64,000 nt of DNA from Giardia intestinalis (taxonomy: Eukaryota): assembly GCA_000002435.2 (NCBI GenBank), contig CM018789.1; one strand, given 5' to 3'. Position numbers and translations under genes: made by a program. A model generated the notes under the pieces. The model was not told where the DNA came from, did no database searches, and saw nothing but the letters and a program-made list of their open reading frames with translations. Of the stretch, positions 1 to 15,734 are shown one piece after another (position 1 is the first letter of the stretch; each line of letters begins with the position of its first letter).

Positions 1-592
1 AGTGCCTAACTGTCCTTGCCGGTGGCATTGCACAGCGAGTGCCCTGGAGGCGCCATCATGACTACGCTTTTCTGCTCTTTTGCTTACAGAGGCCATTACT
101 GTCTGTCCGCTCATGACACCATAAACACACAAGGTCAATCCCCCTGGCACTTTACTCAGAGGTGCGCCGGCTCTTTCGGAGAAGCGCTTCTCTGTGTAGC
201 TGTCTAGTGAACAGACCAGACACGGTGGTGCTATCAGCCAAGCCACTGCTGGGCAGAGCACACGGCCTGTATCTGCTCGTCTCGTGCTCTAGCCAGCCAC
301 CCCGCGTGAGCATCTGGAGGCGTGCCTGGACATATGCGTGGTATTCTGCGGTGTGCACGGTCTCGTGTCCGCACAGTAGGCCAGCCAGGGAGCGTGTGCA
401 GGCACGTCATGTGGCACCACGTCCTTTGTGGAATGCTGGAGGACCACACAGGCGAGGGTCTACCATCAAGATACGGACACGTTGCTTCCTGACATGGAAG
501 GTCAATGAGGCTATCCAGATGGCCCAGCCACGGTAGAAGGCTAGCAGATGTGATCGTATTGGCCACCAGCACTGTCACTAATACCAACATGC

Positions 593-3400
593 ATGATTAA
601 TAGATCTAGCAGGGCCGCAATGTTGCTACTAGTTCTTTGCTTTTTGATGAGCGCTCTCGCTGCACAATGCAAGGGGCACCAGCACTCCAACTGCGCAACC
701 GGCTGGTGCAGGGCGGTCCGTGGCGTCGAGGTCTGTATGAGGTGCAAAGCGGGCCACGTGCTGATCGACGGAGTGTGCGCTGATAACTCTGTTGTCTACG
801 GCGCGGGGTCCGCCTGCCAGATTCTAAACTGCAAGCAGTGTAACGCGGACAACACGCAGTGCGAGCAGTGCGAGGACGGATACACGCCGAGCGCCGGGAA
901 TACCCAGTGCAACGAGGACGCCGCGTCCGCCTGCCAGATTCTAAACTGCAAGCAGTGTAACGCGGACAACACGCAGTGCGAGCAGTGCGAGGACGGATAC
1001 ACGCCGAGCGCCGGGAATACCCAGTGCAACGAGGACGCCGCGTCCGCCTGCCAGATTCTAAACTGCAAGCAGTGTAACGCGGACAACACGCAGTGCGAGC
1101 AGTGCGAGGACGGATACACGCCGAGCGCCGGGAATACCCAGTGCAACGAGGACGCCGCGTCCGCCTGCCAGATTCTAAACTGCAAGCAGTGTAACGCGGA
1201 CAACACGCAGTGCGAGCAGTGCGAGGACGGATACACGCCGAGCGCCGGGAATACCCAGTGCAACGAGGACGCCGCGTCCGCCTGCCAGATTCTAAACTGC
1301 AAGCAGTGTAACGCGGACAACACGCAGTGCGAGCAGTGCGAGGACGGATACACGCCGAGCGCCGGGAATACCCAGTGCAACGAGGACGCCGCGTCCGCCT
1401 GCCAGATTCTAAACTGCAAGCAGTGTAACGCGGACAACACGCAGTGCGAGCAGTGCGAGGACGGATACACGCCGAGCGCCGGGAATACCCAGTGCAACGA
1501 GGACGCCGCGTCCGCCTGCCAGATTCTAAACTGCAAGCAGTGTAACGCGGACAACACGCAGTGCGAGCAGTGCGAGGACGGATACACGCCGAGCGCCGGG
1601 AATACCCAGTGCAACGAGGACGCCGCGTCCGCCTGCCAGATTCTAAACTGCAAGCAGTGTAACGCGGACAACACGCAGTGCGAGCAGTGCGAGGACGGAT
1701 ACACGCCGAGCGCCGGGAATACCCAGTGCAACGAGGACGCCGCGTCCGCCTGCCAGATTCTAAACTGCAAGCAGTGTAACGCGGACAACACGCAGTGCGA
1801 GCAGTGCGAGGACGGATACACGCCGAGCGCCGGGAATACCCAGTGCAACGAGGACGCCGCGTCCGCCTGCCAGATTCTAAACTGCAAGCAGTGTAACGCG
1901 GACAACACGCAGTGCGAGCAGTGCGAGGACGGATACACGCCGAGCGCCGGGAATACCCAGTGCAACGAGGACGCCGCGTCCGCCTGCCAGATTCTAAACT
2001 GCAAGCAGTGTAACGCGGACAACACGCAGTGCGAGCAGTGCGAGGACGGATACACGCCGAGCGCCGGGAATACCCAGTGCAACGAGGACGCCGCGTCCGC
2101 CTGCCAGATTCTAAACTGCAAGCAGTGTAACGCGGACAACACGCAGTGCGAGCAGTGCGAGGACGGATACACGCCGAGCGCCGGGAATACCCAGTGCAAC
2201 GAGGACGCCGCGTCCGCCTGCCAGATTCTAAACTGCAAGCAGTGTAACGCGGACAACACGCAGTGCGAGCAGTGCGAGGACGGATACACGCCGAGCGCCG
2301 GGAATACCCAGTGCAACGAGGACGCCGCGTCCGCCTGCCAGATTCTAAACTGCAAGCAGTGTAACGCGGACAACACGCAGTGCGAGCAGTGCGAGGACGG
2401 ATACACGCCGAGCGCCGGGAATACCCAGTGCAACGAGAACCCAGAAGCGCGGTGCAATACTCCCAACTGTAAGACCTGTGACAACCCCAAAACAGGCAAT
2501 GAAATCTGCACTAAATGTAATGATGGCGACTACCTCACCCCTACAAACCAGTGCGCACATGACTGCACAGCCATCAGCGGATACTACGGAGATACTGACA
2601 AGAAGTGTAAGCCATGCAGCCCTGAGTGCGCTGAGTGCGTTGGGCCAGCCAACAATCAGTGTAGTGCTTGTCCTGCAGGCAAGGCATTAACATATGGAGG
2701 TGGTGATCCTGCCCAAGGGGGCACCTGCGGGGATGCGTGTACGGCGGACAAGAACGGATGTAAGGTCTGTGGGGCAAGGATCGGCGGGACAGACTACTGC
2801 TCCCAGTGCTCAGTGGGTACTCAGGCTCCTCTGAACGGGGTCTGTACGGCCAACGCGCGTGCTCAGTTCTGCACACAAGTTACCAGTGGATCCTGCACGT
2901 CTTGTAGTGGGGGCTACTTCCTCAAGAATGGTGGCTGTTACCAGGCAGATAGACAGCCAGGCAAACAGATATGTACACTAGCTGATAGCAATGGTGGATG
3001 TCAGGCGTGTGCCAATGGTCTTCCTCCTAGTTCTTCTGACGTATGCCCCTCGTGTCATTTCACCTGCAAGACATGCTCGACCGCAGACATTGCAAATACT
3101 TGTACAACGTGTGCAACTGGGTACTACATGGTCGGATCAGGGCCAAACACATGTATTTCGTGTGAAAGTGACAGTGGAAGTGTCAAGGGAGTTGCTGGCT
3201 GCATGAGCTGCGCTCCTCCATCTAGCAATACTGGCTCCGTTCTCTGCTACCTCATGAACGGTGACAGTGCCGGCGGGAGCACGAATAAGAGCGGCCTTAG
3301 CACAGGTGCCATCGCTGGCATCTCTGTGGCTGTCATCGTCGTCGTCGGGGGACTCGTCGGCTTCCTCTGCTGGTGGTTCATCTGCAGGGGCAAAGCGTAG
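593..3400 (+). CDS. Variant-specific surface protein (VSP), 935 aa. It has an N-terminal hydrophobic signal region, 14 tandem 39-aa CXXC-rich repeats, a cysteine-rich body, a C-terminal TM helix and a CRGKA tail. The alternative ATG at 620 (MLLLVLCF...) is possibly the true start.
   Basis: ATG at 593 and stop at 3398-3400. Many CXXC motifs (CKQC, CEQC, CKTC). The C-terminus ...GAIAGISVAVIVVVGGLVGFLCWWFICRGKA matches the Giardia VSP hallmark. The VSP 3' element follows the stop. Confidence 0.9.
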   Translation: MINRSSRAAMLLLVLCFLMSALAAQCKGHQHSNCATGWCRAVRGVEVCMRCKAGHVLIDGVCADNSVVYGAGSACQILNCKQCNADNTQCEQCEDGYTPSAGNTQCNEDAASACQILNCKQCNADNTQCEQCEDGYTPSAGNTQCNEDAASACQILNCKQCNADNTQCEQCEDGYTPSAGNTQCNEDAASACQILNCKQCNADNTQCEQCEDGYTPSAGNTQCNEDAASACQILNCKQCNADNTQCEQCEDGYTPSAGNTQCNEDAASACQILNCKQCNADNTQCEQCEDGYTPSAGNTQCNEDAASACQILNCKQCNADNTQCEQCEDGYTPSAGNTQCNEDAASACQILNCKQCNADNTQCEQCEDGYTPSAGNTQCNEDAASACQILNCKQCNADNTQCEQCEDGYTPSAGNTQCNEDAASACQILNCKQCNADNTQCEQCEDGYTPSAGNTQCNEDAASACQILNCKQCNADNTQCEQCEDGYTPSAGNTQCNEDAASACQILNCKQCNADNTQCEQCEDGYTPSAGNTQCNEDAASACQILNCKQCNADNTQCEQCEDGYTPSAGNTQCNEDAASACQILNCKQCNADNTQCEQCEDGYTPSAGNTQCNENPEARCNTPNCKTCDNPKTGNEICTKCNDGDYLTPTNQCAHDCTAISGYYGDTDKKCKPCSPECAECVGPANNQCSACPAGKALTYGGGDPAQGGTCGDACTADKNGCKVCGARIGGTDYCSQCSVGTQAPLNGVCTANARAQFCTQVTSGSCTSCSGGYFLKNGGCYQADRQPGKQICTLADSNGGCQACANGLPPSSSDVCPSCHFTCKTCSTADIANTCTTCATGYYMVGSGPNTCISCESDSGSVKGVAGCMSCAPPSSNTGSVLCYLMNGDSAGGSTNKSGLSTGAIAGISVAVIVVVGGLVGFLCWWFICRGKA
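811..2448 (+). repeat. 14 head-to-tail copies of a 117-bp (39-aa) coding tandem repeat, ASACQILNCKQCNADNTQCEQCEDGYTPSAGNTQCNEDA. Copies appear nucleotide-identical, with the last unit ending NENPEA.
   Basis: Period 117 is seen directly (for example gcctgccagattctaaactgcaagcagtg at 811, 928, 1045 ...). The length difference between the two VSP ORFs, 935-428 = 507 aa, equals 13 x 39. Confidence 0.95.
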
Positions 3401-3404
3401 ATGT

Positions 3405-3419
3405 ACTTAGATAGTAAAC
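3405..3419 (+). promoter_or_regulatory. VSP-type extended polyadenylation element ACTTAGATAGTAAAC (contains AGTRAAY), 5 nt after the VSP stop.
   Basis: Exact match to the conserved VSP 3' motif ACTYAGRTAGTRAAY. The mirror copy lies at 6074..6088 on the minus strand. Confidence 0.7.
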
Positions 3420-6073
3420 GCGTCACTGTATAAAGCATATTATACTGTGATGGGGCCCTGCCTGTGGGAGCGTCCAGAAATCCCACGAGTAAGTCTCGCC
3501 CACGTCTTGGCCAATCTGAGAGCGAGAACTGGTTGTAGACAGCAAGCAGGGACTCCTCTTTATTAGTGTATCTAAAACTTGGCACCTTCTCCGGTCGCTC
3601 TGTGGGTGTGTGCTCAGTCTGGGTGTGCACGTCGGCCGTTTCGGGGTTCAGGCCTTCTCGCAGACTCTCTGGTCCACCAGTGGCGCCTCTCCTTGGTCTT
3701 CCTTCACGGTGAGTGAAGCCCGGGCCGCTGTCTTTTTTAGATGCCCCCGTCTGTCAGGGGCTGCCATCGGGCTCTCCGCTGGCTGGGCCCCTCGGTGTCC
3801 GTCCGGCTGTGGTTCTGGGTCAGCGCTTCCACAGTCGCGGTCACTTGGGTCTCAGTGGGCCGGCTGGTGGGTGGGGCGGGGGTATGGGCGGTGAGGACTG
3901 GTGGGACCGGGTGGGGGCTGAGATTGGTGTCCGTATGTGCTCCTGGGTTCGGTGGGCCATTGCGGCGGTGGGTGATCCCCTCTCTGTTTGCCAAGGTGGT
4001 TGTGTCTGATCCCCAGCCTTCGTTGCACTCCCGAGACACAGGCACCGACGATCGTGTCGTGTCCCCTGACTGAGCGCCTCCCTTGGCCCCTGCATGCCTC
4101 GGGCAGTACTGCTGCTCTGGTTGACTGGTACATGAGGGATGAGGCAGGCCATCGCAGCCTCTCCTGCTACTCGCTGATGCTCTGTGCGGGTCTGCTGGGC
4201 CCCTGGCATGCCCTGTCCAGTGCCTCGACGTAGTTCACCTCGGCCAGCAGGGGTGTGGATGAGCCGGTGGATGGGATGGGTTCTCTCAGGCCTCTAGTGT
4301 GATGGCCCAGAAGACTGGCACGGTGGGGCACTGGTGGCTGCACTGTCCCCGTGGTCAGCTGTGCTGCTCCTGGTGGGTCCTTGTCATGGAGCGCTGTGTG
4401 TTGTTCATAGGCAGAGGTGAGCCTCCTTGGTTTCAAGATGCTCTACCATGCAGAGAGGAGCACGCTGAGGGTCACCCATACCTCACATCTGCTGTGCCCG
4501 TTCGGGAGTTCCCGGTGTGGTCCACCAGGACCTTGACACCTCTCGTGGCTCTGATGACCCCTCGAGGAGAGCCGGGGTGTCCTATGCCAGGGGAGGCGTG
4601 CACCCTCCTGCATGAGCTGGGACCCACTGCACTGCCCTCAAGGAGGTCTGCTATGAGAGGCAGTGGGATGATTGACGGCCCCAGAGTGCGGTGGAGGGTG
4701 CTCGTGGTCATCTCTTGTGATCGGGCATCACTCTGATGGCCAGCTCTGTGCCTGTGTGGTGCTCAGAGGCCACCTGTCTGCCTCATCGCCTGCTGGACAG
4801 CCGGGTCTCTTGTGGTGTCCGAAGGCCTCCTCACTCCTCTGGCTGCTGCCCCCTCGGGTCATCAATGAAGACAGTCGAGGCCAGCGGAGTCTTCGGTGAG
4901 TCTGGTGCCTGCCTGGGTGTCATGGGGGCTGGCAGCTGTCAGGGCTCTGCCACTGCTCACCTGCCTGGAGTGTGCCTCCCTTGGACCTACTGTGCTGCGT
5001 GAGTCCTCTGGCTTCCTATCAGGCCCTGACTGTGAGGGTGACCCCACCTGGTCCTCTGATGCCCCTGTGGATGAGCATAGCAATGTGTCTGATTGAGGAT
5101 CTCTGGTGCCCGTGTCTGTTGCTGCCTCTCGGGTGCTCGGGTAGTTGCCTGGCACTCTCGTATGGGGGCACAGTCAGCGTGTCCCGAGCAGACTCCAGTC
5201 CTCTCTGGGTCCACACAGTCTGTTCGTGTGTGGATGATCCTCCTGCACTCAGGTCCATCTGTGCACACTATCACTCAGCCTCGAGAGCAGGCCAGTGCAG
5301 TCGCCAGGGTTGCTGTCAGAGGGAGTCGTCTGCCACTACATCGCTCGAGCAGACTCTACAGATCAGGCTGGCTGCTGTGCACCCTCATGGCAGGGCTGCC
5401 TGACTCCCCTTGGTCATCCTCTCTGTCCCGGTGTGCACGGCTCCTGAGGGTTGTCTGGGTGGAGGCACTCACAGACCACGAGCACACAGAGGGGTGAGTC
5501 ATAGATGGACAGCCATCAGTCACCACAGCTGCGATCACCCCAGTCTATCGAGGGACCAGGGGCACATACAGACACCCACCACCCGGTCCCACCAGTCCTC
5601 ACCGCCCATACCCCCGCCCCACCCACCAGCCGGCCCACTGAGACCCAAGTGACCGCGACTGTGGAAGCGCTGACCCAGAACCACAGCCGGACGGACACCG
5701 AGGGGCCCAGCCAGCGGAGAGCCCGATGGCAGCCCCTGACAGACGGGGGCATCTAAAAAAGACAGCGGCCCGGGCTTCACTCACCGTGAAGGAAGACCAA
5801 GGAGAGGCGCCACTGGTGGACCAGAGAGTCTGCGAGAAGGCCTGAACCCCGAAACGGCCGACGTGCACACCCAGACTGAGCACACACCCACAGAGCGACC
5901 GGAGAAGGTGCCAAGTTTTAGATACACTAATAAAGAGGAGTCCCTGCTTGCTGTCTACAACCAGTTCTCGCTCTCAGATTGGCCAAGACGTGGGCGAGAC
6001 TTACTCGTGGGATTTCTGGACGCTCCCACAGGCAGGGCCCCATCACAGTATAATATGCTTTATACAGTGACGC

Positions 6074-6088
6074 GTTTACTATCTAAGT
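6074..6088 (-). promoter_or_regulatory. VSP-type polyadenylation element (mirror copy) for the right-arm VSP.
   Basis: Plus strand reads gtttactatctaagt, the reverse complement of ACTTAGATAGTAAAC, immediately 3' of the minus-strand stop at 6093. Confidence 0.7.
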
Positions 6089-6092
6089 ACAT

Positions 6093-7379
6093 CTACGCTT
6101 TGCCCCTGCAGATGAACCACCAGCAGAGGAAGCCGACGAGTCCCCCGACGACGACGATGACAGCCACAGAGATGCCAGCGATGGCACCTGTGCTAAGGCC
6201 GCTCTTATTCGTGCTCCCGCCGGCACTGTCACCGTTCATGAGGTAGCAGAGAACGGAGCCAGTATTGCTAGATGGAGGAGCGCAGCTCATGCAGCCAGCA
6301 ACTCCCTTGACACTTCCACTGTCACTTTCACACGAAATACATGTGTTTGGCCCTGATCCGACCATGTAGTACCCAGTTGCACACGTTGTACAAGTATTTG
6401 CAATGTCTGCGGTCGAGCATGTCTTGCAGGTGAAATGACACGAGGGGCATACGTCAGAAGAACTAGGAGGAAGACCATTGGCACACGCCTGACATCCACC
6501 ATTGCTATCAGCTAGTGTACATATCTGTTTGCCTGGCTGTCTATCTGCCTGGTAACAGCCACCATTCTTGAGGAAGTAGCCCCCACTACAAGACGTGCAG
6601 GATCCACTGGTAACTTGTGTGCAGAACTGAGCACGCGCGTTGGCCGTACAGACCCCGTTCAGAGGAGCCTGAGTACCCACTGAGCACTGGGAGCAGTAGT
6701 CTGTCCCGCCGATCCTTGCCCCACAGACCTTACATCCGTTCTTGTCCGCCGTACACGCATCCCCGCAGGTGCCCCCTTGGGCAGGATCACCACCTCCATA
6801 TGTTAATGCCTTGCCTGCAGGACAAGCACTACACTGATTGTTGGCTGGCCCAACGCACTCAGCGCACTCAGGGCTGCATGGCTTACACTTCTTGTCAGTA
6901 TCTCCGTAGTATCCGCTGATGGCTGTGCAGTCATGTGCGCACTGGTTTGTAGGGGTGAGGTAGTCGCCATCATTACATTTAGTGCAGATTTCATTGCCTG
7001 TTTTGGGGTTGTCACAGGTCTTACAGTTGGGAGTATTGCACCGCGCTTCTGGGTTCTCGTTGCACTGGGTATTCCCGGCGCTCGGCGTGTATCCGTCCTC
7101 GCACTGCTCGCACTGCGTGTTGTCCGCGTTACACTGCTTGCAGTTTAGAATCTGGCAGGCGGACCCCGCGCCGTAGACAACAGAGTTATCAGCGCACACT
7201 CCGTCGATCAGCACGTGGCCCGCTTTGCACCTCATACAGACCTCGACGCCACGGACCGCCCTGCACCAGCCGGTTGCGCAGTTGGAGTGCTGGTGCCCCT
7301 TGCATTGTGCAGCGAGAGCGCTCATCAAAAAGCAAAGAACTAGTAGCAACATTGCGGCCCTGCTAGATCTATTAATCAT
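6093..7379 (-). CDS. Variant-specific surface protein (VSP), 428 aa. It has the same N- and C-termini as the 593..3400 VSP but only one 39-aa repeat unit.
   Basis: The ORF-track protein starts MINRSSRAAMLLLVLCFLMSALAAQCKG and ends ...WWFICRGKA, identical to the left VSP apart from 13 missing repeat units. Confidence 0.9.
   Translation of the reverse strand: MINRSSRAAMLLLVLCFLMSALAAQCKGHQHSNCATGWCRAVRGVEVCMRCKAGHVLIDGVCADNSVVYGAGSACQILNCKQCNADNTQCEQCEDGYTPSAGNTQCNENPEARCNTPNCKTCDNPKTGNEICTKCNDGDYLTPTNQCAHDCTAISGYYGDTDKKCKPCSPECAECVGPANNQCSACPAGKALTYGGGDPAQGGTCGDACTADKNGCKVCGARIGGTDYCSQCSVGTQAPLNGVCTANARAQFCTQVTSGSCTSCSGGYFLKNGGCYQADRQPGKQICTLADSNGGCQACANGLPPSSSDVCPSCHFTCKTCSTADIANTCTTCATGYYMVGSGPNTCISCESDSGSVKGVAGCMSCAPPSSNTGSVLCYLMNGDSAGGSTNKSGLSTGAIAGISVAVIVVVGGLVGFLCWWFICRGKA
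7045..7161 (-). repeat. Single 117-bp unit in the right-arm VSP, matching the 14-copy array at 811..2448.
   Basis: Coordinate mapping from the left arm. The right VSP protein contains one ...SACQILNCKQCNADNTQCEQCEDGYTPSAGNTQCNENPEA. Confidence 0.8.
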
Positions 7380-10300
7380 GCATGTTGGTATTAGTGACAG
7401 TGCTGGTGGCCAATACGATCACATCTGCTAGCCTTCTACCGTGGCTGGGCCATCTGGATAGCCTCATTGACCTTCCATGTCAGGAAGCAACGTGTCCGTA
7501 TCTTGATGGTAGACCCTCGCCTGTGTGGTCCTCCAGCATTCCACAAAGGACGTGGTGCCACATGACGTGCCTGCACACGCTCCCTGGCTGGCCTACTGTG
7601 CGGACACGAGACCGTGCACACCGCAGAATACCACGCATATGTCCAGGCACGCCTCCAGATGCTCACGCGGGGTGGCTGGCTAGAGCACGAGACGAGCAGA
7701 TACAGGCCGTGTGCTCTGCCCAGCAGTGGCTTGGCTGATAGCACCACCGTGTCTGGTCTGTTCACTAGACAGCTACACAGAGAAGCGCTTCTCCGAAAGA
7801 GCCGGCGCACCTCTGAGTAAAGTGCCAGGGGGATTGACCTTGTGTGTTTATGGTGTCATGAGCGGACAGACAGTAATGGCCTCTGTAAGCAAAAGAGCAG
7901 AAAAGCGTAGTCATGATGGCGCCTCCAGGGCACTCGCTGTGCAATGCCACCGGCAAGGACAGTTAGGCACTGCCAATAGGCCAGTCTGCGTCAGTAAACA
8001 CGCAGTGTTCGCAGGCCGAACCATGTACCTTTGCAAGCGGGCAGTGTAACCATTTCAACTTTTAATGCTGTTAAGCGATCTGTATAGTCCGCTTCATCTG
8101 GACGCCTCACGTGCCTTCGCCGCAACCACTGCTTCCATCTCGCAAGCCAACCATGCTATTGATGGAATGAGGCAGCAATACATCCGCCGCCCTTAATTCG
8201 CCCAGGCTGCCAATTCCACCCTGCAAGCTGCCCGCCACCTACCGTAGATCGATGTGGATGCATACTGCGGTGTGGTTGGGCCTGGAATAAGCAGATCTCA
8301 ACTGGGAGTCAGTCTCCTACTCTCCGTCGTCTGGCTCTGTCTCTGGTGTGAGCAGGACCATGCAACCACGAAAGACATCAGCTCCCTGCCAGTAGACAAT
8401 ATGCGCTGCAGAATAGGAGAACGTAGTGGGCCCCTAAGCTGCCCCGCTCGAGGAGCCGCTGCTTCTTTAACAGGGTTGCCCGACGACAGCAGGCACCAGT
8501 ATGGCTACCAGGCCCTTCTGGCTCTGACTTGCAGAGCATCCCCAGCACCGCTCCGGTAAGAGCTGTCTTTCCTATTGGCTTCTGCCGTCCGGGCGTCAGT
8601 TATGGCGAGAATTAACCCTTGCCCATTGGTACTGGTCGAACACTCACTACGTGTTGCTCGTCTAGGAAAGATTGATCTTGCCGCTCCACGGGCTATTCGC
8701 CATGCTGGATGACGAACATATGTGCCACTCAGCCCCTAGTCTTTATTGGATGCAAGGCCAGCTATGCAGGGTTACAGGGCCGCCTCGCCATCCTTAAGTT
8801 GAGCTCTTAGAAGTGTCCTACGTTTTACTAGACGCAACCTAGGTCCGTCCAACTCTATGCTTTATACTAATTCTAGATTGGGTTAAGCGTGCCTGGTAGT
8901 GAAGGTATCTACGGTACTTCCACTCACCGTGAGCAGTTCATAGAAGCCCCTGTGGCTCATCGCCTTCAATACTTGTGCGTTCACTCATCGATACCTCCGC
9001 GTTATTCAGCATAACTATAGTATGTCACCTGTATGCGTCAAGCTACAGCTCCTAAGTGTCTTACAGCAAATACCTTGCGTCTGAGCACCTGGTTAATTCA
9101 GCATCCACGCGTATAAAACATGATAGAAGTCTGTGGAGTATGGTGGCTTCCATTTTCTCTTTCCCCTTTTCTGACTCTGGTTGACTTTATCTTTGCTGGG
9201 TCAAATATGCACTATCTACGCGCACCTTAATGTTAACGGCACTCGTATGTCCTGCCAGGTCATATAAATCTTTATCAGCCGTTGCATGATAATTGTCTGG
9301 CATAATATGCAATCTGGTATTGAATGAAGAATAAAGCGCCCACTTTTGTAATGAGGACTTGTTGTGCTTATGCTGGGAAATAATAGATGGTCAAGTATAA
9401 CCGTACAAGGCTGTAGGACACTCTGCTGGACGATTTTATGAGTATAGGAAGCTGCCTGCTTTAACCTACAGCTCATTTCATTCACGTCATAAGCATTTTG
9501 CCACACAAGATCACTTTAAAAGCATTCTGTGATTACCAGACATCTTTTGATACCAGTCCCGGGTCAACAAAGCAAGCTGCTTATTGTAATTTGGAAAATT
9601 GGGTAACGGCTCCATGGATTCTTGGGTATCATGCCCACTAATCAGCAACTACCAAATATCCTACTTCGCATCTACTTTTTGCAATCTGTTTTTTGTAAGA
9701 CGGCGACTGAAGCGCTAATGGCTCAGTTTCCTAGACCATCCATATCTCTACATAAAGGTTGCCATCGGAAGTCTCCATAAATAGAACATGCAAACTCGAC
9801 AGACAAGCTTCTAGTATCAGCCTTCTCACAATGTATCTATGACAACGGGTCTGTCTTTAGTCAATCGATACTTATCCAGAGAACAGTAGCGCGGCAGTAG
9901 TATAGATGATTATTACGTAGCTTATGCAGGGGCTTGTTGTCAGCAACAAGAGATAAAACAACCTTAGCCTTACAAGATTAAAAGTTCCACATTAGCTAAA
10001 AACGATAGGCTCAGTGACCATTTTTCATGCCACTCACCAAACTTAAGCCGTTTACAGATTTGACGTTTAGTTGCTCTTACAATCTTTACTCTGCTGGTTG
10101 TCTGTTTGTTTGGATCTCTAGTTAAGGTTGGGCCAGTCTGCAATCTTACTCGTGCTCAATTGCGTGACACGCCATAACCATAATATCATTTATGATCTAG
10201 CCATCTATTGCAGGCGCTACTTGCTACATCAGAAACAATGACCGTGGATCCATTACCTTCCCTTTGGTGGTCAAAGTATCATAAGGGACAGACTCTTCTC

Positions 10301-11899: not shown

Positions 11900-12424
11900 C
11901 TAATCATCGGTGAGATCAATAGTGCTATTGCTAAGATCAATGACTGGAACCCGCTTCAGAGCCCGTTGGTGCGCAATGTATCTTACCTCTTGGTAGTAGT
12001 TGTGGCAGGCACGGATTGTAAGTCCAGCGGCCTGGTTAATTCGGTGCGCTTGTGCGTGCCAGACGGGCCCGTGATGCACTCGCTCGAACACCTTCAGTCT
12101 GAAAAGGTAGGCGTGGATCATCTCATGCACCAGCACGTCGAGCAGGTCGTGTTGTGAACGATATTGGAGTAGAGGTGCAGATAGGATAATTACAATAGGA
12201 CTATGCTCTTCTGTTCGCGTCCCTCTGTATTTGCATAGACCTGCAGAACGTGTTAGCCTATTGCTCCAATGAACCACAACATCTCTCAGGCAATTGTCGA
12301 AAAAAGCCTCGTTGAAATGCCTAAAGAGCGCGTGCACATCACCAAAAGGCCAGTGTTGTGTTTCTAGTTCCTGAGAGGTAGGTGGTGGGGCAGCAAAAAA
12401 GTCCAGGAGGGGGTTGCTATCCAT
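11900..12424 (-). CDS. Minimal SprT/Spartan-like zinc metalloprotease (DNA-protein crosslink repair protease family), ~174 aa. The track ORF begins at a GTG at 12697; in-frame ATGs at 12583 and 12565 are alternative starts, but the SprT domain begins right after the ATG at 12424.
   Basis: ...FNEAFFDNCL...WSNRLTRSAGLC...LLDVLVHEMIHAYLF...HGPVWHAQAHRIN...TIRACHNYYQEV closely parallels the human SPRTN core (LLHEMIHAYLF, HGPEF, HRIN). The HExxH motif is present. Confidence 0.65.
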   Translation of the reverse strand: MDSNPLLDFFAAPPPTSQELETQHWPFGDVHALFRHFNEAFFDNCLRDVVVHWSNRLTRSAGLCKYRGTRTEEHSPIVIILSAPLLQYRSQHDLLDVLVHEMIHAYLFRLKVFERVHHGPVWHAQAHRINQAAGLTIRACHNYYQEVRYIAHQRALKRVPVIDLSNSTIDLTDD

Positions 12425-12428
12425 TTTT
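12425..12428. promoter_or_regulatory. Four-nucleotide A/T spacer (TTTT within ccaTTTTTatg) between the divergent start codons of the SprT-like (-) and Nei-like (+) genes; presumed shared bidirectional initiator.
   Basis: Minus ATG at 12424..12422 and plus ATG at 12429..12431. Giardia promoters are short A/T-rich initiators abutting the start codon. Confidence 0.4.
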
Positions 12429-13847
12429 ATGCCAGAGCATCCTGAGGTTCGAGCCTTCGCAGAACGCATAACGTTTGAGGCAGAGCACACTCTCTTTACT
12501 AACGTCTCTACTTCGAGGGCGTGTGTGTATAAGGCCCTCCCACCTTTGTTCCTTGATGATTCCATAAAAGTAGCATTTACCATAAGGTGCGAATCTCGAG
12601 GCAAGCAGCTCCGAGTTGACCTGGCTCGGGCAGCTGATCCACCTAGGAATGAGGCAAAGAGTATTTTTGTGCGTCTGAAAAGAAATACATCTGACACCTC
12701 AGAGACACCCTATGATTTGTGCAAAACAACCGCTTTAAGCCGCCCCTGGGAACACTCAGATCACGCTGTGGCGCTTACCATACCAACCAGTATCGTGATT
12801 GGCCTGGGATTAGCAGGCTGTATCAACACCTTCTTAACCCCAGAGGAAGCTTTGAAGTCTAACGCACATCTCTTGTTTGAGGCATCTGATGCTGTGTTAG
12901 CAGTATGCTCGCCACGGCCAGAGACCATGTACTGGCGAGTAGGAGACTTCGACCATGCACGGTCCCCTGATCCTGTGGCACAGTACCTAGACTATGTGTC
13001 CAAGATACTGTCCAAACTGTCACATATTCCTATAGGTCTTGACGGGTCTTTCATTGTGCCACCCAAGTCGATATTTTCACAACCCATATGCCGGCTTCTT
13101 TTGTCTCAGGAATTGTTCAACGGAGTAGGGAATTACCTACGAGCAGAGGCCATGCACCGACTTCTTATTCACCCTTTCACCCCAAGCGTCTATGTGTTTG
13201 AAGAGCTTATCCATTGGGTTCATGACACCGTGCGAGAAACCCCTCGATTCCACAACTTGAGTAACAAGTGGAGAAGTCTTGCCGAAAAGAATGTCTCTAT
13301 TATCGAGACCAAGTGCCCACTCATCCCGATGATCAGAAGGCTATGTGAGGAGGCCTATGCTGTTCTGGATGATCACAGACTCTTTTCGGAGTGGCTTTTA
13401 TGCTATAAGAAAGCAACTAATTGCATTCTTGATTCCGGGGGCAGAGAAGTTTGGTTCTTCGAAAAGCTAGTCGCAAACAAATCCAGTCATGCAAGTGAGC
13501 ACGGCGATAAGAAGAATTCTGCTGAGAAGCCAGATGCATGTACCCTGTCAGAGCTCATACTGTCCTCTGAACCTAGTCTTAAAAAGGTTGCAGTACAGCA
13601 ACTGGCTACGTCAAACGCAGAAAATGTCATTCTTAATAGCACGGAGAATGATGCTGATGTCAGCCAGCTAGACATCTTGGAATACTCTCGCAAAGACCTC
13701 CTTCGACGAGGCACGGTACTCGACAATCTTCCAATTGATTCTAGAAACGAGTCAGCTAGTCGATGGCAGGACAAGATTGTTCGGAAGAGTACTGTCCAAC
13801 AATTACATGACGCTCGAACGTTTCAAGCAAGCCTCCAGTCGAAGTAA
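12429..13847 (+). CDS. Fpg/Nei-family (NEIL-like) DNA glycosylase/AP lyase, 472 aa. True start is the ATG at 12429 (MPEHPEV...); the track start at 12414 is upstream of it.
   Basis: The N-terminus MPEHPEVRAFAERI matches the Fpg/Nei catalytic Pro2-Glu3 signature (MPELPEV, MPEGPEL). The H2TH motif LLSQELFNGVGNYLRAEAMHRLLIHPFTPS matches E. coli Fpg [26 protein letters not shown]. No C-terminal CxxC zinc finger is seen. Confidence 0.65.
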   Translation: MPEHPEVRAFAERITFEAEHTLFTNVSTSRACVYKALPPLFLDDSIKVAFTIRCESRGKQLRVDLARAADPPRNEAKSIFVRLKRNTSDTSETPYDLCKTTALSRPWEHSDHAVALTIPTSIVIGLGLAGCINTFLTPEEALKSNAHLLFEASDAVLAVCSPRPETMYWRVGDFDHARSPDPVAQYLDYVSKILSKLSHIPIGLDGSFIVPPKSIFSQPICRLLLSQELFNGVGNYLRAEAMHRLLIHPFTPSVYVFEELIHWVHDTVRETPRFHNLSNKWRSLAEKNVSIIETKCPLIPMIRRLCEEAYAVLDDHRLFSEWLLCYKKATNCILDSGGREVWFFEKLVANKSSHASEHGDKKNSAEKPDACTLSELILSSEPSLKKVAVQQLATSNAENVILNSTENDADVSQLDILEYSRKDLLRRGTVLDNLPIDSRNESASRWQDKIVRKSTVQQLHDARTFQASLQSK

Positions 13848-13865
13848 AGCAGAGAGTCCGCGGGC

Positions 13866-14399
13866 CTATATCTGCCTGACCATTATCTTATCATCCAAGG
13901 AGTACAGAAGGTGGTCGCTATACAGCTGTACAATGGGAGGCGGCTCTGTTTCAGAGATGGGCATTGTGCTTCTACAATACTGGTCTACAATCTCTAACTG
14001 ATCAGATACCTTCATGATCGTGTAGTGGTTTGCAAGAAAGAGGGCAGAACGGGCGTTGAGTAATCGTGTAAACGGGGGTTGGTGACACAGCTGGCTGTTC
14101 AACTGTTCAACCCTCTGCACCCTCAGCGGCTGCAGGCTGCCTCTCATGGCCAAGAGGTTGAGCCCGTCGGTTCCGACGGTGTAGAGCACTTGCTTGCAGG
14201 TGAGCGCGGAGTCGAAAATGGGATACGAGGGGGCCAGCTGGGCGTGTGTGTGAAGAAGGGCGTTCCTTATCAGATCCCAGACCTTCACAGACCCGTCGAT
14301 GCTGGTGGAAACCAGCGCGCTGTCGGCGACGTGCAGCGACGTCACCGCGTGGCTGTGAGAAAGGGTCGTGGCGGGGTGGGGCGGAAAAGCGTGCACCAT
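13866..14399 (-). CDS. Small ORF (177 aa) with two WD40-like blades (SIDGSVKVWDL...). It may be a fragmentary or decayed WD-repeat gene. The opposite-strand ORF 14079..14495 is Gly/Arg-rich and likely an artefact.
   Basis: ATG at 14399. WD-like GS..WD motifs are present, but the ORF is too short for a full propeller and the upstream context is GC-rich rather than A/T-rich. Confidence 0.25.
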   Translation of the reverse strand: MVHAFPPHPATTLSHSHAVTSLHVADSALVSTSIDGSVKVWDLIRNALLHTHAQLAPSYPIFDSALTCKQVLYTVGTDGLNLLAMRGSLQPLRVQRVEQLNSQLCHQPPFTRLLNARSALFLANHYTIMKVSDQLEIVDQYCRSTMPISETEPPPIVQLYSDHLLYSLDDKIMVRQI

Positions 14400-14523
14400 G
14401 CGGGAGTCGGACCCGCCCCAACAGCTTGGAAGGCTGTCATGCTAGCCGATACACCAATGGTGCCCGGCGCGCCGCATAAACAGCGGATAAATTAGTATGT
14501 GCTTTGAATGGTCTGGTTCAGAT

Positions 14524-15072
14524 TTACTCGGGATTGGCGGTGCGGATGAACTCGTCGAGGAGGTTCTCCTCTGGGAGCGCACGCCACCGGGTCCGCTCGG
14601 TCCCCCGCAGTGCTTCTTGCTGCCGCTGGAGCCGCTCGATGGTCTCTCGCTCACGAGCTTTGTGTACTCTTGCTTCCTCTGCGTAATTTGTAACGGCATC
14701 GATGAATTGTTTAACACCAGCAAAGGCGGTGCGGATCAGCCGCATCTCTGCAGAATCAGATGGAGGCGCAGGAGTGGTTATGTGACCCTTCTCTAGGAGC
14801 TCTCGCCGCTCTATGGAAATAGCATCCTGCAGGCGGCGCTCATACTTCTCACGCTCAACAGCCTTTTCTCGCCCTTCGCGATTGAGCATAACAGGACCGT
14901 GATCCGTTGTATTCAGGTTCTTGTTGACGATACGGCCAACTGCACTCGTAAGTTGCTCCGCGTCGTTATAGCCTAGATGCTTGCGCTTTGGCTCCCCTTC
15001 ATGTGCTGATGGTTCTGATGCAGAGTCACTGATGCTATCTGGGAGGTAGGAGATGTCTGTGTCCGATGACAT
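14524..15072 (-). CDS. Hypothetical protein, ~182 aa. The track ORF starts at a GTG at 15102; the first ATG is at 15072.
   Basis: ATG preceded by an A/T-rich ctaaaaattgtaatagt. Coding-like composition with a charged helical C-terminal half. No family recognised. Confidence 0.4.
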   Translation of the reverse strand: MSSDTDISYLPDSISDSASEPSAHEGEPKRKHLGYNDAEQLTSAVGRIVNKNLNTTDHGPVMLNREGREKAVEREKYERRLQDAISIERRELLEKGHITTPAPPSDSAEMRLIRTAFAGVKQFIDAVTNYAEEARVHKARERETIERLQRQQEALRGTERTRWRALPEENLLDEFIRTANPE

Positions 15073-15098: not shown

Positions 15099-15734
15099 TC
15101 ACCCTACGAGCACAGCAGATCCTTTGATTACATGGTCCTCAACGGCATCGAAGTGGACTGCGAGTTGATCATCTACCGCCACAACAGTCTCTGTATCGAA
15201 AGATGTGATAGTGGTAGCTTGGAGAAAGCGTACAACCACAACCTTGCTACGGAGAAGGATAAGCTGTCGACTAAGGGTTTCGCGGAGCTCCTTTTGGAAG
15301 GAGGCTTCTGGGTCCAATTCTGTTGCATGGTTGGACAGTATGGCTTTAATGGGTTGAAAAATGGTTGTATTGAGCAACTGGTGCGACAACTCAAGAAAGG
15401 CTCTGGCGGCATCCTGCTCATTTTCAGTGAGGTACTTTTGTAGCTCCGTCTGCATATATAGAAATGGCTTATCGCTGAGCTTTGAAAGCCGTAGACGCAC
15501 ATAGTCTTCGAAAATGAAGCGTAGCCGCTCCATGTGTAGGTGAACCATGTCTCTATGAACCTTGTCATACATTGCTATTCTGTCTTGAGATTTCGACAGG
15601 TATTCCTTAACTGTATCAAGCACCTCTTGCTCGCGCGGAAGAACGATGGGACTATAGCGCTCGTTGTTCCACAGCTGCAGAAACCTGTCGTATGCCCGTT
15701 TATTCTGTTCACTGGCCTCAAGTAGCCCGGCCAT
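15099..15734 (-). CDS. SLD5: GINS complex subunit Sld5 (GINS4), 211 aa.
   Basis: FLQLWNNERYSPIVLPREQEVLDTV vs human LEQAWMNEKFAPELLESKPEIVECV. VHLHMERLRFIFEDYVRLRL vs IHQMEMERIRYVLSSYLRCRL. The C-terminal VVVRFLQ...IKGSAVLVG vs VFLRVRE...VASGAVQLI. Confidence 0.7.
   Translation of the reverse strand: MAGLLEASEQNKRAYDRFLQLWNNERYSPIVLPREQEVLDTVKEYLSKSQDRIAMYDKVHRDMVHLHMERLRFIFEDYVRLRLSKLSDKPFLYMQTELQKYLTENEQDAARAFLELSHQLLNTTIFQPIKAILSNHATELDPEASFQKELRETLSRQLILLRSKVVVVRFLQATTITSFDTETVVAVDDQLAVHFDAVEDHVIKGSAVLVG

What the first reader, a model, noticed from the sequence alone, without database searches (positions are those of the whole stretch)
11900..13847. Head-to-head pairing of a Spartan/SprT-like protease and an Fpg/Nei-family DNA glycosylase with start codons 4 bp apart
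The minus-strand SprT-like gene starts at 12424 and the plus-strand Nei-like gene starts at 12429, joined by ccaTTTTTatg. They must share one bidirectional initiator and are probably co-regulated. Functionally this couples a DNA-protein crosslink (DPC) protease with a glycosylase family whose members form covalent Schiff-base enzyme-DNA intermediates and act at replication-fork lesions (NEIL3 unhooks crosslinks; SPRTN removes DPCs at forks). Such tight physical pairing of these two repair activities would be a notable regulatory module in a minimal eukaryote. A replication gene (Sld5) lies 1.2 kb downstream.
Basis: partly seen in the sequence, partly recalled or inferred. Interest (0 to 1): 0.65.

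Follow-up and report, generated by a model that had tools for sequence, protein, structure and literature searches.

The report
Giardia back-to-back SPRTN-like and NEIL1-like genes
Two real, already annotated Giardia DNA-repair genes (a stripped-down Spartan-type protease and a NEIL1-type glycosylase) do start 4 bp apart on opposite strands, but this is an ordinary product of Giardia's extremely compact genome, it is confined to the G. duodenalis species complex, and nothing shows that the two genes are functionally coupled.

Summary
A minus-strand ATG at 12424 and a plus-strand ATG at 12429 are separated by TTTT. Both gene models are identical to NCBI's Giardia WB proteins 'SprT-like family protein' (174 aa) and 'Endonuclease VIII-like 1' (472 aa). 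Both family assignments hold: SPRTN (PDB E 1e-22, Foldseek top hit 6mdw) and NEIL1 (PDB E 1e-14; Foldseek top 50 all human NEIL1; P2, E3, K59, H2TH and R339 intact).

The CAT-TTTT-ATG junction is invariant in five G. duodenalis lineages despite near-saturated synonymous sites, so the spacer is constrained.

The pairing stops at the species complex. In G. muris and a sister species NEIL1 faces Sld5 instead, and in two other Giardia-like organisms the two genes lie elsewhere. In WB the pair sits on an arm of a VSP-centred inverted duplication and is probably present twice.

Spacers of 12 and 44 bp between divergent genes occur in the same window. Published TSS-seq already documents back-to-back initiation from AT-rich initiators in Giardia.

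'One shared initiator' is plausible for SprT. NEIL may instead start at a conserved A-run about 30 nt upstream, inside the SprT coding sequence. Functional coupling is untested speculation. Interest is low to moderate.

The parts
11900..12424 (-). SPRTN-family ('SprT-like') metalloprotease gene, 174 aa. It has the protease core only, with no Zn-binding subdomain and no PIP, SHP or UBZ tail.
   Evidence: Pfam PF10263 scores 89.8 bits. Human SPRTN 6mdw matches at E 1e-22 with 38-40% identity. The AF2 model has pLDDT 80 and its best Foldseek hit is 6mdw (E 7e-10, TM 0.62). The protein is identical to NCBI KAE8301638/41. dN/dS is 0.02-0.17.
12113..12127 (-). HEMIH zinc-binding and catalytic motif (H100, E101, H104). 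The third ligand, H118, is at 12071-12073.
   Evidence: These residues are invariant in a 26-sequence alignment with SPRTN/DVC-1 proteins. The 9-mer HEMIHAYLF is identical to human SPRTN.
11903..11944 (-). C-terminal tandem SIM-like motifs, VIDLSNSTIDLTDD (aa 161-174).
   Evidence: The motifs are conserved in five G. duodenalis lineages. Similar C-terminal motifs occur in P0023, P0033 and P0019. The region is disordered in the model. SUMO binding is inferred from the motif only.
12425..12428 (.). TTTT/AAAA spacer between the two start codons. It is the probable initiator and leader for SprT, and possibly for NEIL.
   Evidence: It is invariant in five lineages although only 18% of fourfold sites are invariant. 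On the minus strand TAAAAATG matches the 3' half of published initiator variants such as AAAATAAAAAT.
12395..12400 (+). A6 run (A7 in four other lineages) 29-34 nt upstream of the NEIL ATG, inside SprT codons 9-10 (TTT TTT). It is an alternative NEIL initiator.
   Evidence: It is conserved in all five lineages although Phe codon usage is about 50:50 TTT/TTC. It resembles the published variants AATTCAAAAAA and ATTTCAAAAAA. G. muris and L006 have an AT-rich element about 30-37 nt upstream of their NEIL ATG.
12429..13847 (+). NEIL1-type Fpg/Nei DNA glycosylase/AP-lyase gene, 472 aa.
   Evidence: Human NEIL1 matches at E 1e-14. The top 50 Foldseek hits are all human NEIL1 (E 4e-19, target TM 0.77-0.86). 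The protein is identical to NCBI 'Endonuclease VIII-like 1' KAE8301637/42. dN/dS is 0.04-0.11.
12432..12437 (+). Catalytic Pro2-Glu3 of the glycosylase. Lys59 (human K54) is at 12603-12605.
   Evidence: These residues are invariant in the 14-sequence alignment A5. The N-terminus MPEHPEV compares with human MPEGPEL.
13119..13148 (+). H2TH DNA-binding motif NGVGNYLRAE (aa 231-240).
   Evidence: The motif is invariant in A5. Pfam H2TH scores 24.1 bits, below its cutoff.
13371..13457 (+). 'Zincless finger' (Neil1-DNA_bind region, aa 315-343), with Arg339 (human R277) at 13443-13445.
   Evidence: Pfam PF09292 scores 17.7 bits here; among the precomputed Pfam domains listed for the G. muris orthologue. 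R339 and W342 are invariant. Two beta-strands are predicted at 331-334 and 340-343.
12636..12773 (+). Lineage-specific disordered insert (aa 70-115) in the N-terminal beta-sandwich. A disordered C-terminal tail (aa 348-472) spans 13470-13844.
   Evidence: pLDDT is below 50 in both regions. The insert is absent from the G. muris orthologue and greatly expanded in P0008.
12467..12469 (-). In-frame ATG 15 codons upstream of the annotated SprT start, an alternative start that cannot be excluded.
   Evidence: It is present and open in all five lineages, but it is the antisense of NEIL codons R13-I14 (CGC ATA). The two frames share wobble positions, so its conservation is explained by NEIL.
13866..14375 (-). 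Truncated WD40 gene (C-terminal two thirds only), ending at a duplication and synteny breakpoint.
   Evidence: tblastn matches P15 WD40 residues 110-296 only. The window is 99.96% identical to other assemblage-A contigs up to 14375 and unrelated afterwards. The gene is intact (293-296 aa) in all other loci.
14391..14463 (-). tRNA-Gly(UCC), 16 bp beyond the breakpoint.
   Evidence: Rfam tRNA scores 56.2 bits. ARAGORN calls it as well.
15099..15734 (-). Sld5 (GINS) gene, preceded by Rrp15 at 14524-15072. Sld5 is the head-to-head partner of NEIL in G. muris (inferred ancestral).
   Evidence: Pfam Sld5 scores 23.3 bits and Rrp15p 31.7 bits. G. muris and L006 have the order Rrp15-Sld5<->NEIL-WD40-PUF-S4.
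1..7971 (.). Inverted repeat centred on two tail-to-tail VSP genes (593-3400 + and 6093-7379 -). It is the core of the duplication whose arm carries the SprT-NEIL pair.
   Evidence: Arms 2323-3920 and 5573-7170 are 100% identical, and 1-961 and 7011-7971 are 98% identical. The left arm runs off the window. Pfam VSP scores 338 and 308 bits. NCBI accession order is NEIL-SprT-x-x-SprT-NEIL.

Best explanation
This is a genuine divergently transcribed gene pair of Giardia duodenalis (assemblage A, WB). One gene encodes a minimal SPRTN-family DNA-protein-crosslink protease. It has the zinc metalloprotease core with HEMIH...H, lacks the Zn-binding ssDNA-sensing subdomain and the PCNA/p97/ubiquitin-binding tail, and ends in two SIM-like motifs. 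The other gene encodes a NEIL1-type bifunctional glycosylase with a Pro2 nucleophile, Glu3, Lys59, an H2TH motif and a zincless finger with Arg339.

The 4-bp spacing reflects how Giardia genes are built. Promoters are little more than an AT-rich initiator at or a few nucleotides before the ATG, and leaders are 1-20 nt long. Rearrangement can therefore butt two 5' ends together, after which selection freezes the junction.

Most likely SprT transcription starts in the AAAA of the spacer, giving a leader of 4 nt or less. NEIL starts either in the same A/T tract or at the conserved A-run about 30 nt upstream inside SprT codons 9-10, in which case the two 5' ends overlap in antisense.

The juxtaposition arose within the G. 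duodenalis lineage. The inferred ancestral partner of NEIL, still seen in G. muris, is Sld5. The pair has since been copied as part of a VSP-centred inverted duplication in WB. The adjacency most likely reflects genome compaction and rearrangement, not selection for a joint repair function.

Shown: the gene identities, the catalytic residues, the spacing, the spacer constraint and the synteny pattern. Inferred: the TSS positions, the history of the duplication and the absence of functional coupling.
For: - **Gene identity:**
- **Purifying selection:** dN/dS is 0.02-0.17 for both genes.
- **Junction:** it is invariant in five lineages, while neutral sites are mostly changed and the convergent spacer varies from 13 to 25 bp.
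- **Pairing absent elsewhere:** G. muris, L006, the SRR14944320 organism and the SRR31929897 organism.
- **Other tiny divergent spacers in the window:** 12 bp (CATTTTAAAATTCTCATG) and 44 bp.
- **Literature:** an AT-rich 11-nt initiator, 31.5% of TSS regions within 40 nt of the ATG, and back-to-back initiation between adjacent genes are documented (PMC3792122). 5' UTRs are 1-14 nt (PMC3610916). Median intergenic distance is 81 bp in G. intestinalis and 37 bp in G. muris, 9.5% of G. muris genes overlap, and small rearrangements are frequent (PMC7641422).
- **Duplication context:**
Against: - No transcript 5'-end data for this locus could be obtained, so the TSS positions are inferred.
- A crude weight matrix built from the 17 published initiator variants does not place either the spacer or the A-run in the top 1% of window scores.
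- Synonymous divergence in the first 15-20 NEIL codons is somewhat low: 0.31 against 0.45, with an uncorrected P of 0.014-0.026. This could mean extra embedded signals, or a longer SprT N-terminus.
- Both successive head-to-head partners of NEIL (Sld5, then SPRTN) are replication-associated. This is a coincidence one could read as selection.
- The second copy of the pair lies outside the window and is inferred from accession order only.
Confidence: 0.7

Rival explanations
1. Selected co-regulated repair module. The pairing is maintained because a single bidirectional initiator co-expresses a DPC protease with a glycosylase that itself forms covalent Schiff-base intermediates. The protease would then be available to remove trapped NEIL1 or other replication-blocking adducts.
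For: - The spacer and junction are invariant across five deeply diverged lineages and are clearly constrained.
- NEIL1 and Fpg can be covalently trapped by oxidised AP-site products (PMC10325907).
- SPRTN is a replication-coupled DPC protease (PMC5128727 abstract).
- NEIL's other known partner, in G. muris, is the replisome gene Sld5.
- In another Giardia-like organism SprT lies near MutS, Rad52 and Tfb4.
Against: - The adjacency is absent from every relative examined outside G. duodenalis.
- Constraint on a 4-nt leader or initiator is expected for either gene alone, so it does not imply coupling.
- Bidirectional Giardia loci are reported to show no correlation between the two directions.
- With roughly 5000 genes, of which a few percent act in replication or repair, several adjacent repair-repair pairs are expected by chance (my estimate).
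- NEIL1, NEIL2, Fpg and Nei did not process AP-peptide crosslinks in vitro, which weakens the idea that NEIL cleans up after SPRTN.
- The pair sits in a rearrangement-prone VSP duplication.
Confidence: 0.1
2. Overlapping-gene model. SprT is really translated from an upstream ATG, either 12469 (189 aa) or 12583 (227 aa, as in the 2007 annotation GL50803_115695). The two genes would then overlap by 41-155 nt, with independent promoters, and would not be 4 bp apart.
For: - The minus-strand ORF stays open for 95 codons upstream in WB.
- The 2007 RefSeq model was 227 aa.
- The ATG at -15 is present and open in all five lineages.
- Synonymous divergence is mildly reduced in NEIL codons 1-20.
Against: - The -47 and -53 ATGs are absent from the four other lineages, and a stop lies at -34 in three lineages.
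- The -15 ATG is the antisense of conserved NEIL codons, and the two frames share wobble positions, so its conservation and the open frame are by-products.
- Its context (CGTTATGCG) is not A-rich, unlike the context of most starts in the window, whereas 12424 has AAAAATG.
- Relatives P0023 and P0033 have even shorter N-termini before the protease domain.
- The current NCBI model is 174 aa.
Confidence: 0.12
3. One or both copies in this window are decaying duplicates (pseudogenes in the making), because the pair lies on the derived arm of an inverted duplication whose end truncates the neighbouring WD40 gene.
For: - The WD40 gene downstream is truncated at 14375.
- WB carries two identical copies of each gene.
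- 4.5 kb of ORF-poor sequence flanks SprT.
Against: - Both ORFs are intact and 100% identical between the two copies.
- All catalytic residues are present.
- The window sequence is 99.96% identical to other assemblage-A assemblies over 8941-14375.
Confidence: 0.05

Closest known systems
[quoted passage not shown]
   Same: The protease subdomain is shared: 38-40% identity over about 125 residues, an identical HEMIHAYLF motif, a conserved third His in HGP, and 2.3 A rmsd to 6mdw in the model. All named profile hits are SPRTN, Spartan or DVC-1.
   Different: The SPRTN_ZBD domain (PF22934) is absent even at E<=1. No sequence remains for the SHP box, PIP box or UBZ, since the protein ends at residue 174. 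It ends instead in two SIM-like motifs. The same ZBD-less architecture is seen in two other Giardia-like organisms. Activity and DNA dependence are untested.
Human NEIL1 (endonuclease VIII-like 1), Fpg/Nei family
   Same: Both have an N-terminal Pro2/Glu3, the Lys of RGK(E/Q)L, the H2TH motif NG(V/I)GNYLRAE, and a zincless finger with the conserved Arg in GR..WF. The fold matches with target TM 0.77-0.86.
   Different: Identity is only about 20-26%. All three Pfam domain models score below their gathering cutoffs. A 45-residue disordered insert sits in the N-terminal domain, and there is a 125-residue unrelated tail. Residue 4 is His instead of Gly. Substrates are unknown.
Giardia divergent gene pairs served by AT-rich initiators, with bidirectional or back-to-back initiation (Teodorovic 2007, PMC1885649; Tolba 2013, PMC3792122)
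   Same: Both involve head-to-head genes, an A/T tract at the start codons, very short leaders, and promoter information confined to a few tens of bp.
   Different: The spacer here is only 4 nt and carries just half of the usual T-run/A-run palindrome. Compare ATTTTAAAAT in the 12-bp spacer at 59699-59710. Any further signals must therefore lie inside coding sequence. TSSs at this locus have not been mapped.
G. muris NEIL1-Sld5 head-to-head pair
   Same: The orthologous NEIL1 gene is again divergently paired with a replication-associated gene across a very short spacer of 57 bp (47 bp in L006).
   Different: The partner gene is different (a GINS subunit rather than a protease). The spacer is long enough to hold a complete AT-rich palindrome.

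Membership tests
SPRTN/Spartan DPC proteases | SprT-like metalloprotease domain (Pfam PF10263) | tested here: met
   The domain scores 89.8 bits against a cutoff of 25.6 and covers 107 of 108 profile positions.
SPRTN/Spartan DPC proteases | HExxH plus a downstream His as zinc ligands, with a catalytic Glu | tested here: met
   H100, E101, H104 and H118 are invariant in the 26-sequence alignment with SPRTN/DVC-1.
SPRTN/Spartan DPC proteases | Closest relatives are SPRTN, not Wss1/WLM, GCNA or bacterial SprT | tested here: met
   PDB returns only SPRTN (E 1e-22). The named profile-search hits are SPRTN, Spartan, DVC-1 or generic SprT-like-domain names.. The WLM model gives at most E 0.16 in a relative. 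GCNA was not compared explicitly.
SPRTN/Spartan DPC proteases | Zn-binding subdomain (SPRTN_ZBD, PF22934) that binds ssDNA | tested here: not met
   There is no hit at E<=1 in P0016, P0023 or P0033, while a mammalian (Chinese hamster) SPRTN scores 90.8 bits. No Cys or His cluster follows residue 148.
SPRTN/Spartan DPC proteases | C-terminal SHP, PIP and UBZ recruitment modules | tested here: not met
   The protein ends 26 residues after the protease domain. Only SIM-like VIDLS/IDLTDD motifs are present.
SPRTN/Spartan DPC proteases | DNA-dependent proteolysis of crosslinked proteins | not testable with these tools
   A biochemical assay is required.
NEIL1 subfamily of Fpg/Nei glycosylases | N-terminal Pro nucleophile and Glu3 directly after Met1 | tested here: met
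   The N-terminus is MPEHPEV, and M1, P2, E3 and E6 are invariant in A5.
NEIL1 subfamily of Fpg/Nei glycosylases | Conserved Lys (human K54) in RGKEL | tested here: met
   R57, G58 and K59 are invariant. They align to the human RGKEL.
NEIL1 subfamily of Fpg/Nei glycosylases | H2TH DNA-binding motif | tested here: met
   NGVGNYLRAE is invariant. Pfam H2TH scores 24.1 bits, below its cutoff of 34.7. The helices are modelled with pLDDT 85-90.
NEIL1 subfamily of Fpg/Nei glycosylases | Zincless finger with the conserved Arg (human R277) in place of a Cys4 zinc finger | tested here: met
   PF09292 scores 17.7 bits here and is among the precomputed Pfam domains listed for the G. muris orthologue. R339 and W342 are invariant. 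A beta-hairpin is predicted at 331-343. There is no Cys4 motif.
NEIL1 subfamily of Fpg/Nei glycosylases | Pfam gathering thresholds for the three domain models | tested here: not met
   All three models score below cutoff in this protein. The assignment rests instead on the PDB phmmer search (E 1e-14) and on the fold search.
NEIL1 subfamily of Fpg/Nei glycosylases | Glycosylase and beta,delta-lyase activity on oxidised bases | not testable with these tools
   An enzyme assay is required.
Giardia shared (bidirectional) AT-rich initiator | Match to the published 11-nt T-run/A-run initiator consensus at the start sites | tested here: inconclusive
   The minus strand GGCATAAAAAT(G) matches positions 5-11 of AAAATAAAAAT. 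The plus strand has only the T-run. A crude PWM places neither in the top 1%.
Giardia shared (bidirectional) AT-rich initiator | Two TSSs mapped back-to-back in the same A/T tract | not testable with these tools
   No per-locus TSS data were available. The supplements of PMC3792122 carry none.
Functionally conserved gene pair | Adjacency retained beyond closely related, largely syntenic genomes | tested here: not met
   The pair is present in five G. duodenalis lineages. It is absent from G. muris, L006, and the SRR14944320 and SRR31929897 organisms.

The most novel reading that the evidence does not exclude
The NEIL1 gene of Giardia may be deliberately wired to replication-associated partners through shared minimal promoters. 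It faces Sld5 (GINS) in G. muris and its sister species. After a rearrangement it faces a ZBD-less, SIM-bearing SPRTN in G. duodenalis, across a 4-nt spacer kept invariant over deep divergence. On this reading the pair would be an S-phase or damage-responsive unit. The protease would clear trapped NEIL1-DNA Schiff-base adducts and other DPCs ahead of the fork. The natural loss of the SPRTN Zn-binding subdomain would mean that DNA sensing is replaced by SUMO-directed recruitment.
Probability: 0.08. Interest if true: 0.55.

Novelty: new member of a known kind. Interest (0 to 1): 0.22.

Why it matters
As it stands, the finding matters little. Both genes are already annotated, and tightly abutted divergent genes with AT-rich initiators are a described property of Giardia.

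The locus is still useful in three modest ways:
1. It is an extreme natural test case for how little DNA a eukaryotic promoter needs. The spacer is 4 nt, so every other signal must be embedded in the partner's codons.
2. It reveals a naturally ZBD-less SPRTN with C-terminal SIM-like motifs, conserved across a Giardia clade. This bears on how SPRTN proteases sense DNA.
3. It shows that the older 227-aa SprT model was wrong and that the present 174-aa model is the one supported by comparative data.

If the two genes were shown to be co-regulated and epistatic, the locus would be a compact model for glycosylase-DPC handling.

Tried and rejected
1. **Initiator weight matrix.** I built it from the 17 published variants. 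It is too strict: neither candidate TSS region reaches the top 1%, so it cannot discriminate between them.
2. **Synonymous-site profile** along both genes in five lineages, to detect embedded promoter signals. It shows only a weak dip in NEIL codons 1-20 (uncorrected P of 0.014-0.026), similar to dips elsewhere in the gene. This is inconclusive.
3. **Expression data.** The locus tag GL50803_115695 appears in no searchable paper and not in the supplements of PMC3610916. The supplements of PMC7641422 contain no SprT, endonuclease VIII or Sld5 entries. NEIL has only 2020-era RefSeq accessions, which suggests it was not in the earlier RefSeq set, so older expression tables probably cannot be used.
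4. **Second copy on the NCBI chromosome.** The look-up of encoding contigs for P0001 and P0016 returned only short Logan contigs, so the second copy is inferred from accession order.
5. **A G. muris SprT orthologue.** None appeared among the 120 listed profile hits. Whether G. muris has one, and where, remains unknown.
6. **Literature on Giardia NEIL1 or SPRTN**. Nothing specific was found.
7. **The pseudogene or artefact idea.** I rejected it because both ORFs are intact, identical between copies and under strong purifying selection.


Full report
**Observation.** The window reads ...gctatcCATttttATGccagag... at 12415-12436. The minus-strand start codon occupies 12424-12422 and the plus-strand start codon 12429-12431, with TTTT (12425-12428) between them. 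The two ORFs from these ATGs (11900-12424, 174 aa; 12429-13847, 472 aa) are 100% identical to NCBI proteins of Giardia duodenalis/intestinalis WB. These are named 'SprT-like family protein' and 'Endonuclease VIII-like 1'.

**The protease.**
- Pfam SprT-like (PF10263) scores 89.8 bits.
- Apart from one non-significant chance hit (polyhedrin, E 0.45), the only PDB relatives are the two human SPRTN structures (E 1e-22), which share an identical HEMIHAYLF motif.
- A profile search returns 909 hits. The named ones among the best 120 are SPRTN, Spartan, DVC-1 or generically named SprT-like-domain proteins of animals, fungi, oomycetes and amoebae.
- H100, E101, H104 and H118 are invariant in a 26-sequence alignment.
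- An AlphaFold model (pLDDT 80) finds 6mdw first (E 7e-10, rmsd 2.3 A), followed by minigluzincins.
- Nearly all relatives carry SPRTN_ZBD (PF22934). The Giardia protein and two relatives from other Giardia-like organisms (P0023, P0033) lack it even at E<=1.
- The protein stops 26 residues after the protease core, so it has no SHP, PIP or UBZ module.
- Its last 14 residues, VIDLSNSTIDLTDD, look like two SUMO-interaction motifs. They are conserved in five lineages, with analogous C-terminal motifs in P0023, P0033 and P0019.
- It is best called a minimal SPRTN-family protease rather than a full Spartan orthologue.

**The glycosylase.**
- The three Pfam models hit in the NEIL1 order, all below their gathering cutoffs: Fapy_DNA_glyco at residues 1-67, H2TH at 218-270 and Neil1-DNA_bind at 315-343.
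- phmmer against the PDB finds 15 human NEIL1 sequences at about 1e-14. Bacterial Fpg and mimivirus Nei score 0.03 or worse.
- In an alignment with Giardia orthologues, mammalian NEIL1 and other Fpg/Nei proteins, several positions are invariant: M1, P2, E3, E6, R57-G58-K59 (human K54), NG.GNYLRAE, and R339 and W342 (human R277 region).
- The AlphaFold model has a confident core. Its top 50 Foldseek PDB hits are all human NEIL1 (E 4e-19, target-normalised TM 0.77-0.86).
- Residues 70-115 (an insert absent from G. muris) and residues 348-472 are disordered.

Both genes are under strong purifying selection, with dN/dS of 0.02-0.17.

**Which start for SprT?**
- In WB the minus-strand frame stays open 95 codons upstream. 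It has ATGs at -15 (12469), -47 (12565) and -53 (12583).
- The 2007 RefSeq model (GL50803_115695) was 227 aa, starting at 12583. It has since been revised to 174 aa.
- The -47 and -53 ATGs are absent from the four other lineages, and three lineages have a stop at -34.
- The -15 ATG is present in all five lineages. However, it is the antisense of NEIL codons Arg13-Ile14 (CGC ATA), and the two frames share wobble positions. That accounts both for its conservation and for the long open antisense frame.
- Its context is not A-rich, whereas 12424 sits in AAAAATG, like most starts in the window.
- Relatives have even shorter N-termini.
- I consider 12424 the start with about 85% confidence.

**Is the junction special?** I recovered the locus from five G. 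duodenalis lineages:
- the window (assemblage A);
- P15 (assemblage E, 90% protein identity);
- a 75% lineage (probably assemblage B);
- two further lineages at 76% and 71%.

All five have a 174-codon SprT, a 4-bp gap and the identical string CATTTTTATG. Synonymous sites between the deeper lineages are near saturation (pS 0.62-0.85). Only 30 of 167 fourfold sites are invariant in all five, so four neutral sites staying unchanged has a probability of about 0.001. The convergent spacer at the other end of NEIL varies in both sequence and length, from 13 to 25 bp. The spacer is therefore functionally constrained.

This is what one expects of any Giardia 5' end:
- 5' UTRs are 1-14 nt (PMC3610916).
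- The only general promoter element found by TSS-seq is an AT-rich 11-mer centred on the TSS, such as ATTTTAAAATG or AAAATAAAAAT.
- Back-to-back initiation between adjacent genes is documented (PMC3792122).
- In this same window other divergent pairs are separated by 12 bp (CAT-TTTAAAATTCTC-ATG, 59698/59711) and by 44 bp.
- The genome-wide median intergenic distance is 81 bp (PMC7641422).

Four base pairs is the short end of a continuum, not a new kind of arrangement.

**One initiator or two?**
- On the SprT strand the sequence GGCATAAAAATGG reproduces positions 5-11 of the published variant AAAATAAAAAT. This puts the likely TSS at the first A, giving a 4-nt leader.
- On the NEIL strand only a T-run precedes the ATG, which is atypical among the window's genes.
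- A conserved A6-7 run lies 29-34 nt upstream of the NEIL ATG (12395-12400). It is encoded by SprT codons 9-10, which are TTT TTT in all five lineages although Phe usage is about 50:50. It resembles the published variants (A/T)TT(C)AAAAAA.
- In G. muris and its sister species the AT-rich palindrome between Sld5 and NEIL also sits about 30-37 nt upstream of the NEIL ATG.
- NEIL may therefore start inside the SprT coding region, giving two initiators and about 30 nt of 5' antisense overlap.
- My crude weight matrix could not discriminate. The dip in synonymous divergence in NEIL codons 1-20 is weak.
- 'Must share one bidirectional initiator' is plausible but unproven.

**Synteny.**

| Organism or locus | Arrangement |
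|---|---|
| G. muris | Rrp15(-) Sld5(-) <57 bp> NEIL(+) WD40(-) PUF(+) S4(+) |
| G. muris-like species (L006) | Same order, with a 47-bp spacer |
| Organism of SRR14944320 | NEIL follows a 1842-aa gene in tandem; its SprT (55% identity) lies between an aminotransferase and a 994-aa gene |
| Organism of SRR31929897 | SprT (52% identity) faces a GDPD gene across 398 bp and is followed by MutS |

The SprT-NEIL adjacency is confined to the G. duodenalis complex. It replaced a NEIL-Sld5 adjacency that, judging from G. muris, is ancestral.

**Local context in WB.**
- The window is 99.96% identical to other assemblage-A assemblies from about 8950 to 14375, and then diverges completely.
- Elsewhere the WD40 gene downstream of NEIL is intact and is followed by PUF and S4. 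In the window it is cut to its C-terminal two thirds.
- It is followed, 16 bp later, by tRNA-Gly(UCC), and then by Rrp15, Sld5, an M16 peptidase-like gene and V-ATPase H.
- Window positions 1-7971 form an inverted repeat around two tail-to-tail VSP genes, and the left arm runs off the window.
- NCBI lists two identical copies of each protein, with accessions ordered NEIL, SprT, x, x, SprT, NEIL.

The simplest reading is a VSP-centred inverted duplication of about 2 x 10 kb, with each arm carrying SprT-NEIL. The window holds the arm whose outer end (14375) abuts the old Rrp15-Sld5 side. 'Sld5 1.2 kb downstream' is thus a by-product of this duplication. The pair sits in a rearrangement-prone region.

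**Functional coupling.**
- Biochemically, NEIL1 and Fpg can be trapped on oxidised AP products, and SPRTN-type proteases degrade such adducts (PMC10325907; PMC5128727). A link is conceivable.
- The same paper found that NEIL1, NEIL2, Fpg and Nei do not process AP-peptide crosslinks.
- Bidirectional Giardia loci reportedly show uncorrelated outputs.
- The adjacency is not conserved.
- With a few percent of about 5000 genes devoted to replication and repair, a handful of such neighbours is expected by chance (my estimate).
- No expression data for the pair could be retrieved.

**Verdict.** The arrangement is a further, extreme example of a known Giardia genome feature. The proposed regulatory and functional module is unsupported but not excluded. 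The most interesting by-product is the ZBD-less, SIM-tailed SPRTN conserved in the Giardia clade.

Noticed in passing
window 1-7971: There is a large inverted repeat (arms 2323-3920 and 5573-7170 at 100%; 1-961 and 7011-7971 at 98%) around two tail-to-tail VSP genes (593-3400 +, 935 aa; 6093-7379 -, 428 aa). The left copy carries a 117-bp tandem array (802-2440, about 14 copies) where the right copy has one unit. The left arm runs off the window start.
   Followed up: partly
window 11900-13847, plus a copy outside the window: NCBI lists two identical WB copies of each protein, with accession order NEIL (KAE8301637), SprT (38), two genes, SprT (41), NEIL (42). The SprT-NEIL pair is therefore probably present twice, once on each arm of the VSP-centred inverted duplication. 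The second copy could not be inspected.
   Followed up: partly
window 13866-14523: A synteny and duplication breakpoint lies at 14375/14376. The WD40 gene downstream of NEIL is truncated to residues ~110-296, whereas it is intact (293-296 aa) in all other assemblies, where PUF and RPS4 follow it. A tRNA-Gly(UCC) lies 16 bp beyond the break (14391-14463, -). The ATG of the 177-aa ORF (14399) lies inside the tRNA gene.
   Followed up: yes
L001 5302-7050 (G. muris); L006 2-1620: In G. muris and a sister species the NEIL1 orthologue is head-to-head with Sld5 (GINS) across 57 and 47 bp, with an AT-rich palindrome (TTTTCAAATTTGAA or CTCAAATTTAAG) in the spacer. Both successive partners of NEIL1 are replication-associated genes.
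   Followed up: partly
window 7380-11900: This 4.5-kb stretch has no ORF of 125 aa or more, which is unusual for so compact a genome. GC falls from about 57% to about 41% near 9000. Several independent short-read assemblies end at about 8941-8966. The P15 and B-like contigs end 600-700 bp beyond the SprT stop.
   Followed up: no
window 11903-11944 (-); P0023, P0033: The SPRTN_ZBD-less architecture with C-terminal SIM-like motifs (VIDLS..IDLTDD; SIISLSSAIDLT; PVLIDLS) is shared by SprT proteins of three Giardia-like organisms. This suggests a clade-wide loss of the ssDNA-sensing subdomain.
   Followed up: partly
L019 1-16816: In the SRR31929897 organism the SprT gene lies in a neighbourhood rich in DNA-repair genes: Tfb4, Rad52 and a MutS homologue immediately downstream. 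This may be a coincidence.
   Followed up: no
window 59698-59711: Another divergent pair (NAD(P)H-hydrate dehydratase-like, minus strand; WD40 protein, plus strand) is separated by 12 bp. The sequence CAT-TTTAAAATTCTC-ATG contains the palindromic consensus initiator ATTTTAAAAT. It is a textbook shared-initiator candidate in the same window.
   Followed up: partly
window 12636-12773 (+); P0008 / L005: The G. duodenalis NEIL1 has a 45-residue disordered insert between beta-strands of the N-terminal domain. At the same position the SRR14944320 organism has an insert of about 250 residues, and G. muris has none.
   Followed up: partly
window 11849-12157 (+) and 12425-12697 (-): Long spurious antisense ORFs overlap both genes, because the antisense frame shares wobble positions with the sense frame. 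Automatic gene callers on the Logan contigs called the 102-aa antisense ORF instead of SprT. The 2007 RefSeq model extended SprT to 227 aa (GL50803_115695).
   Followed up: yes
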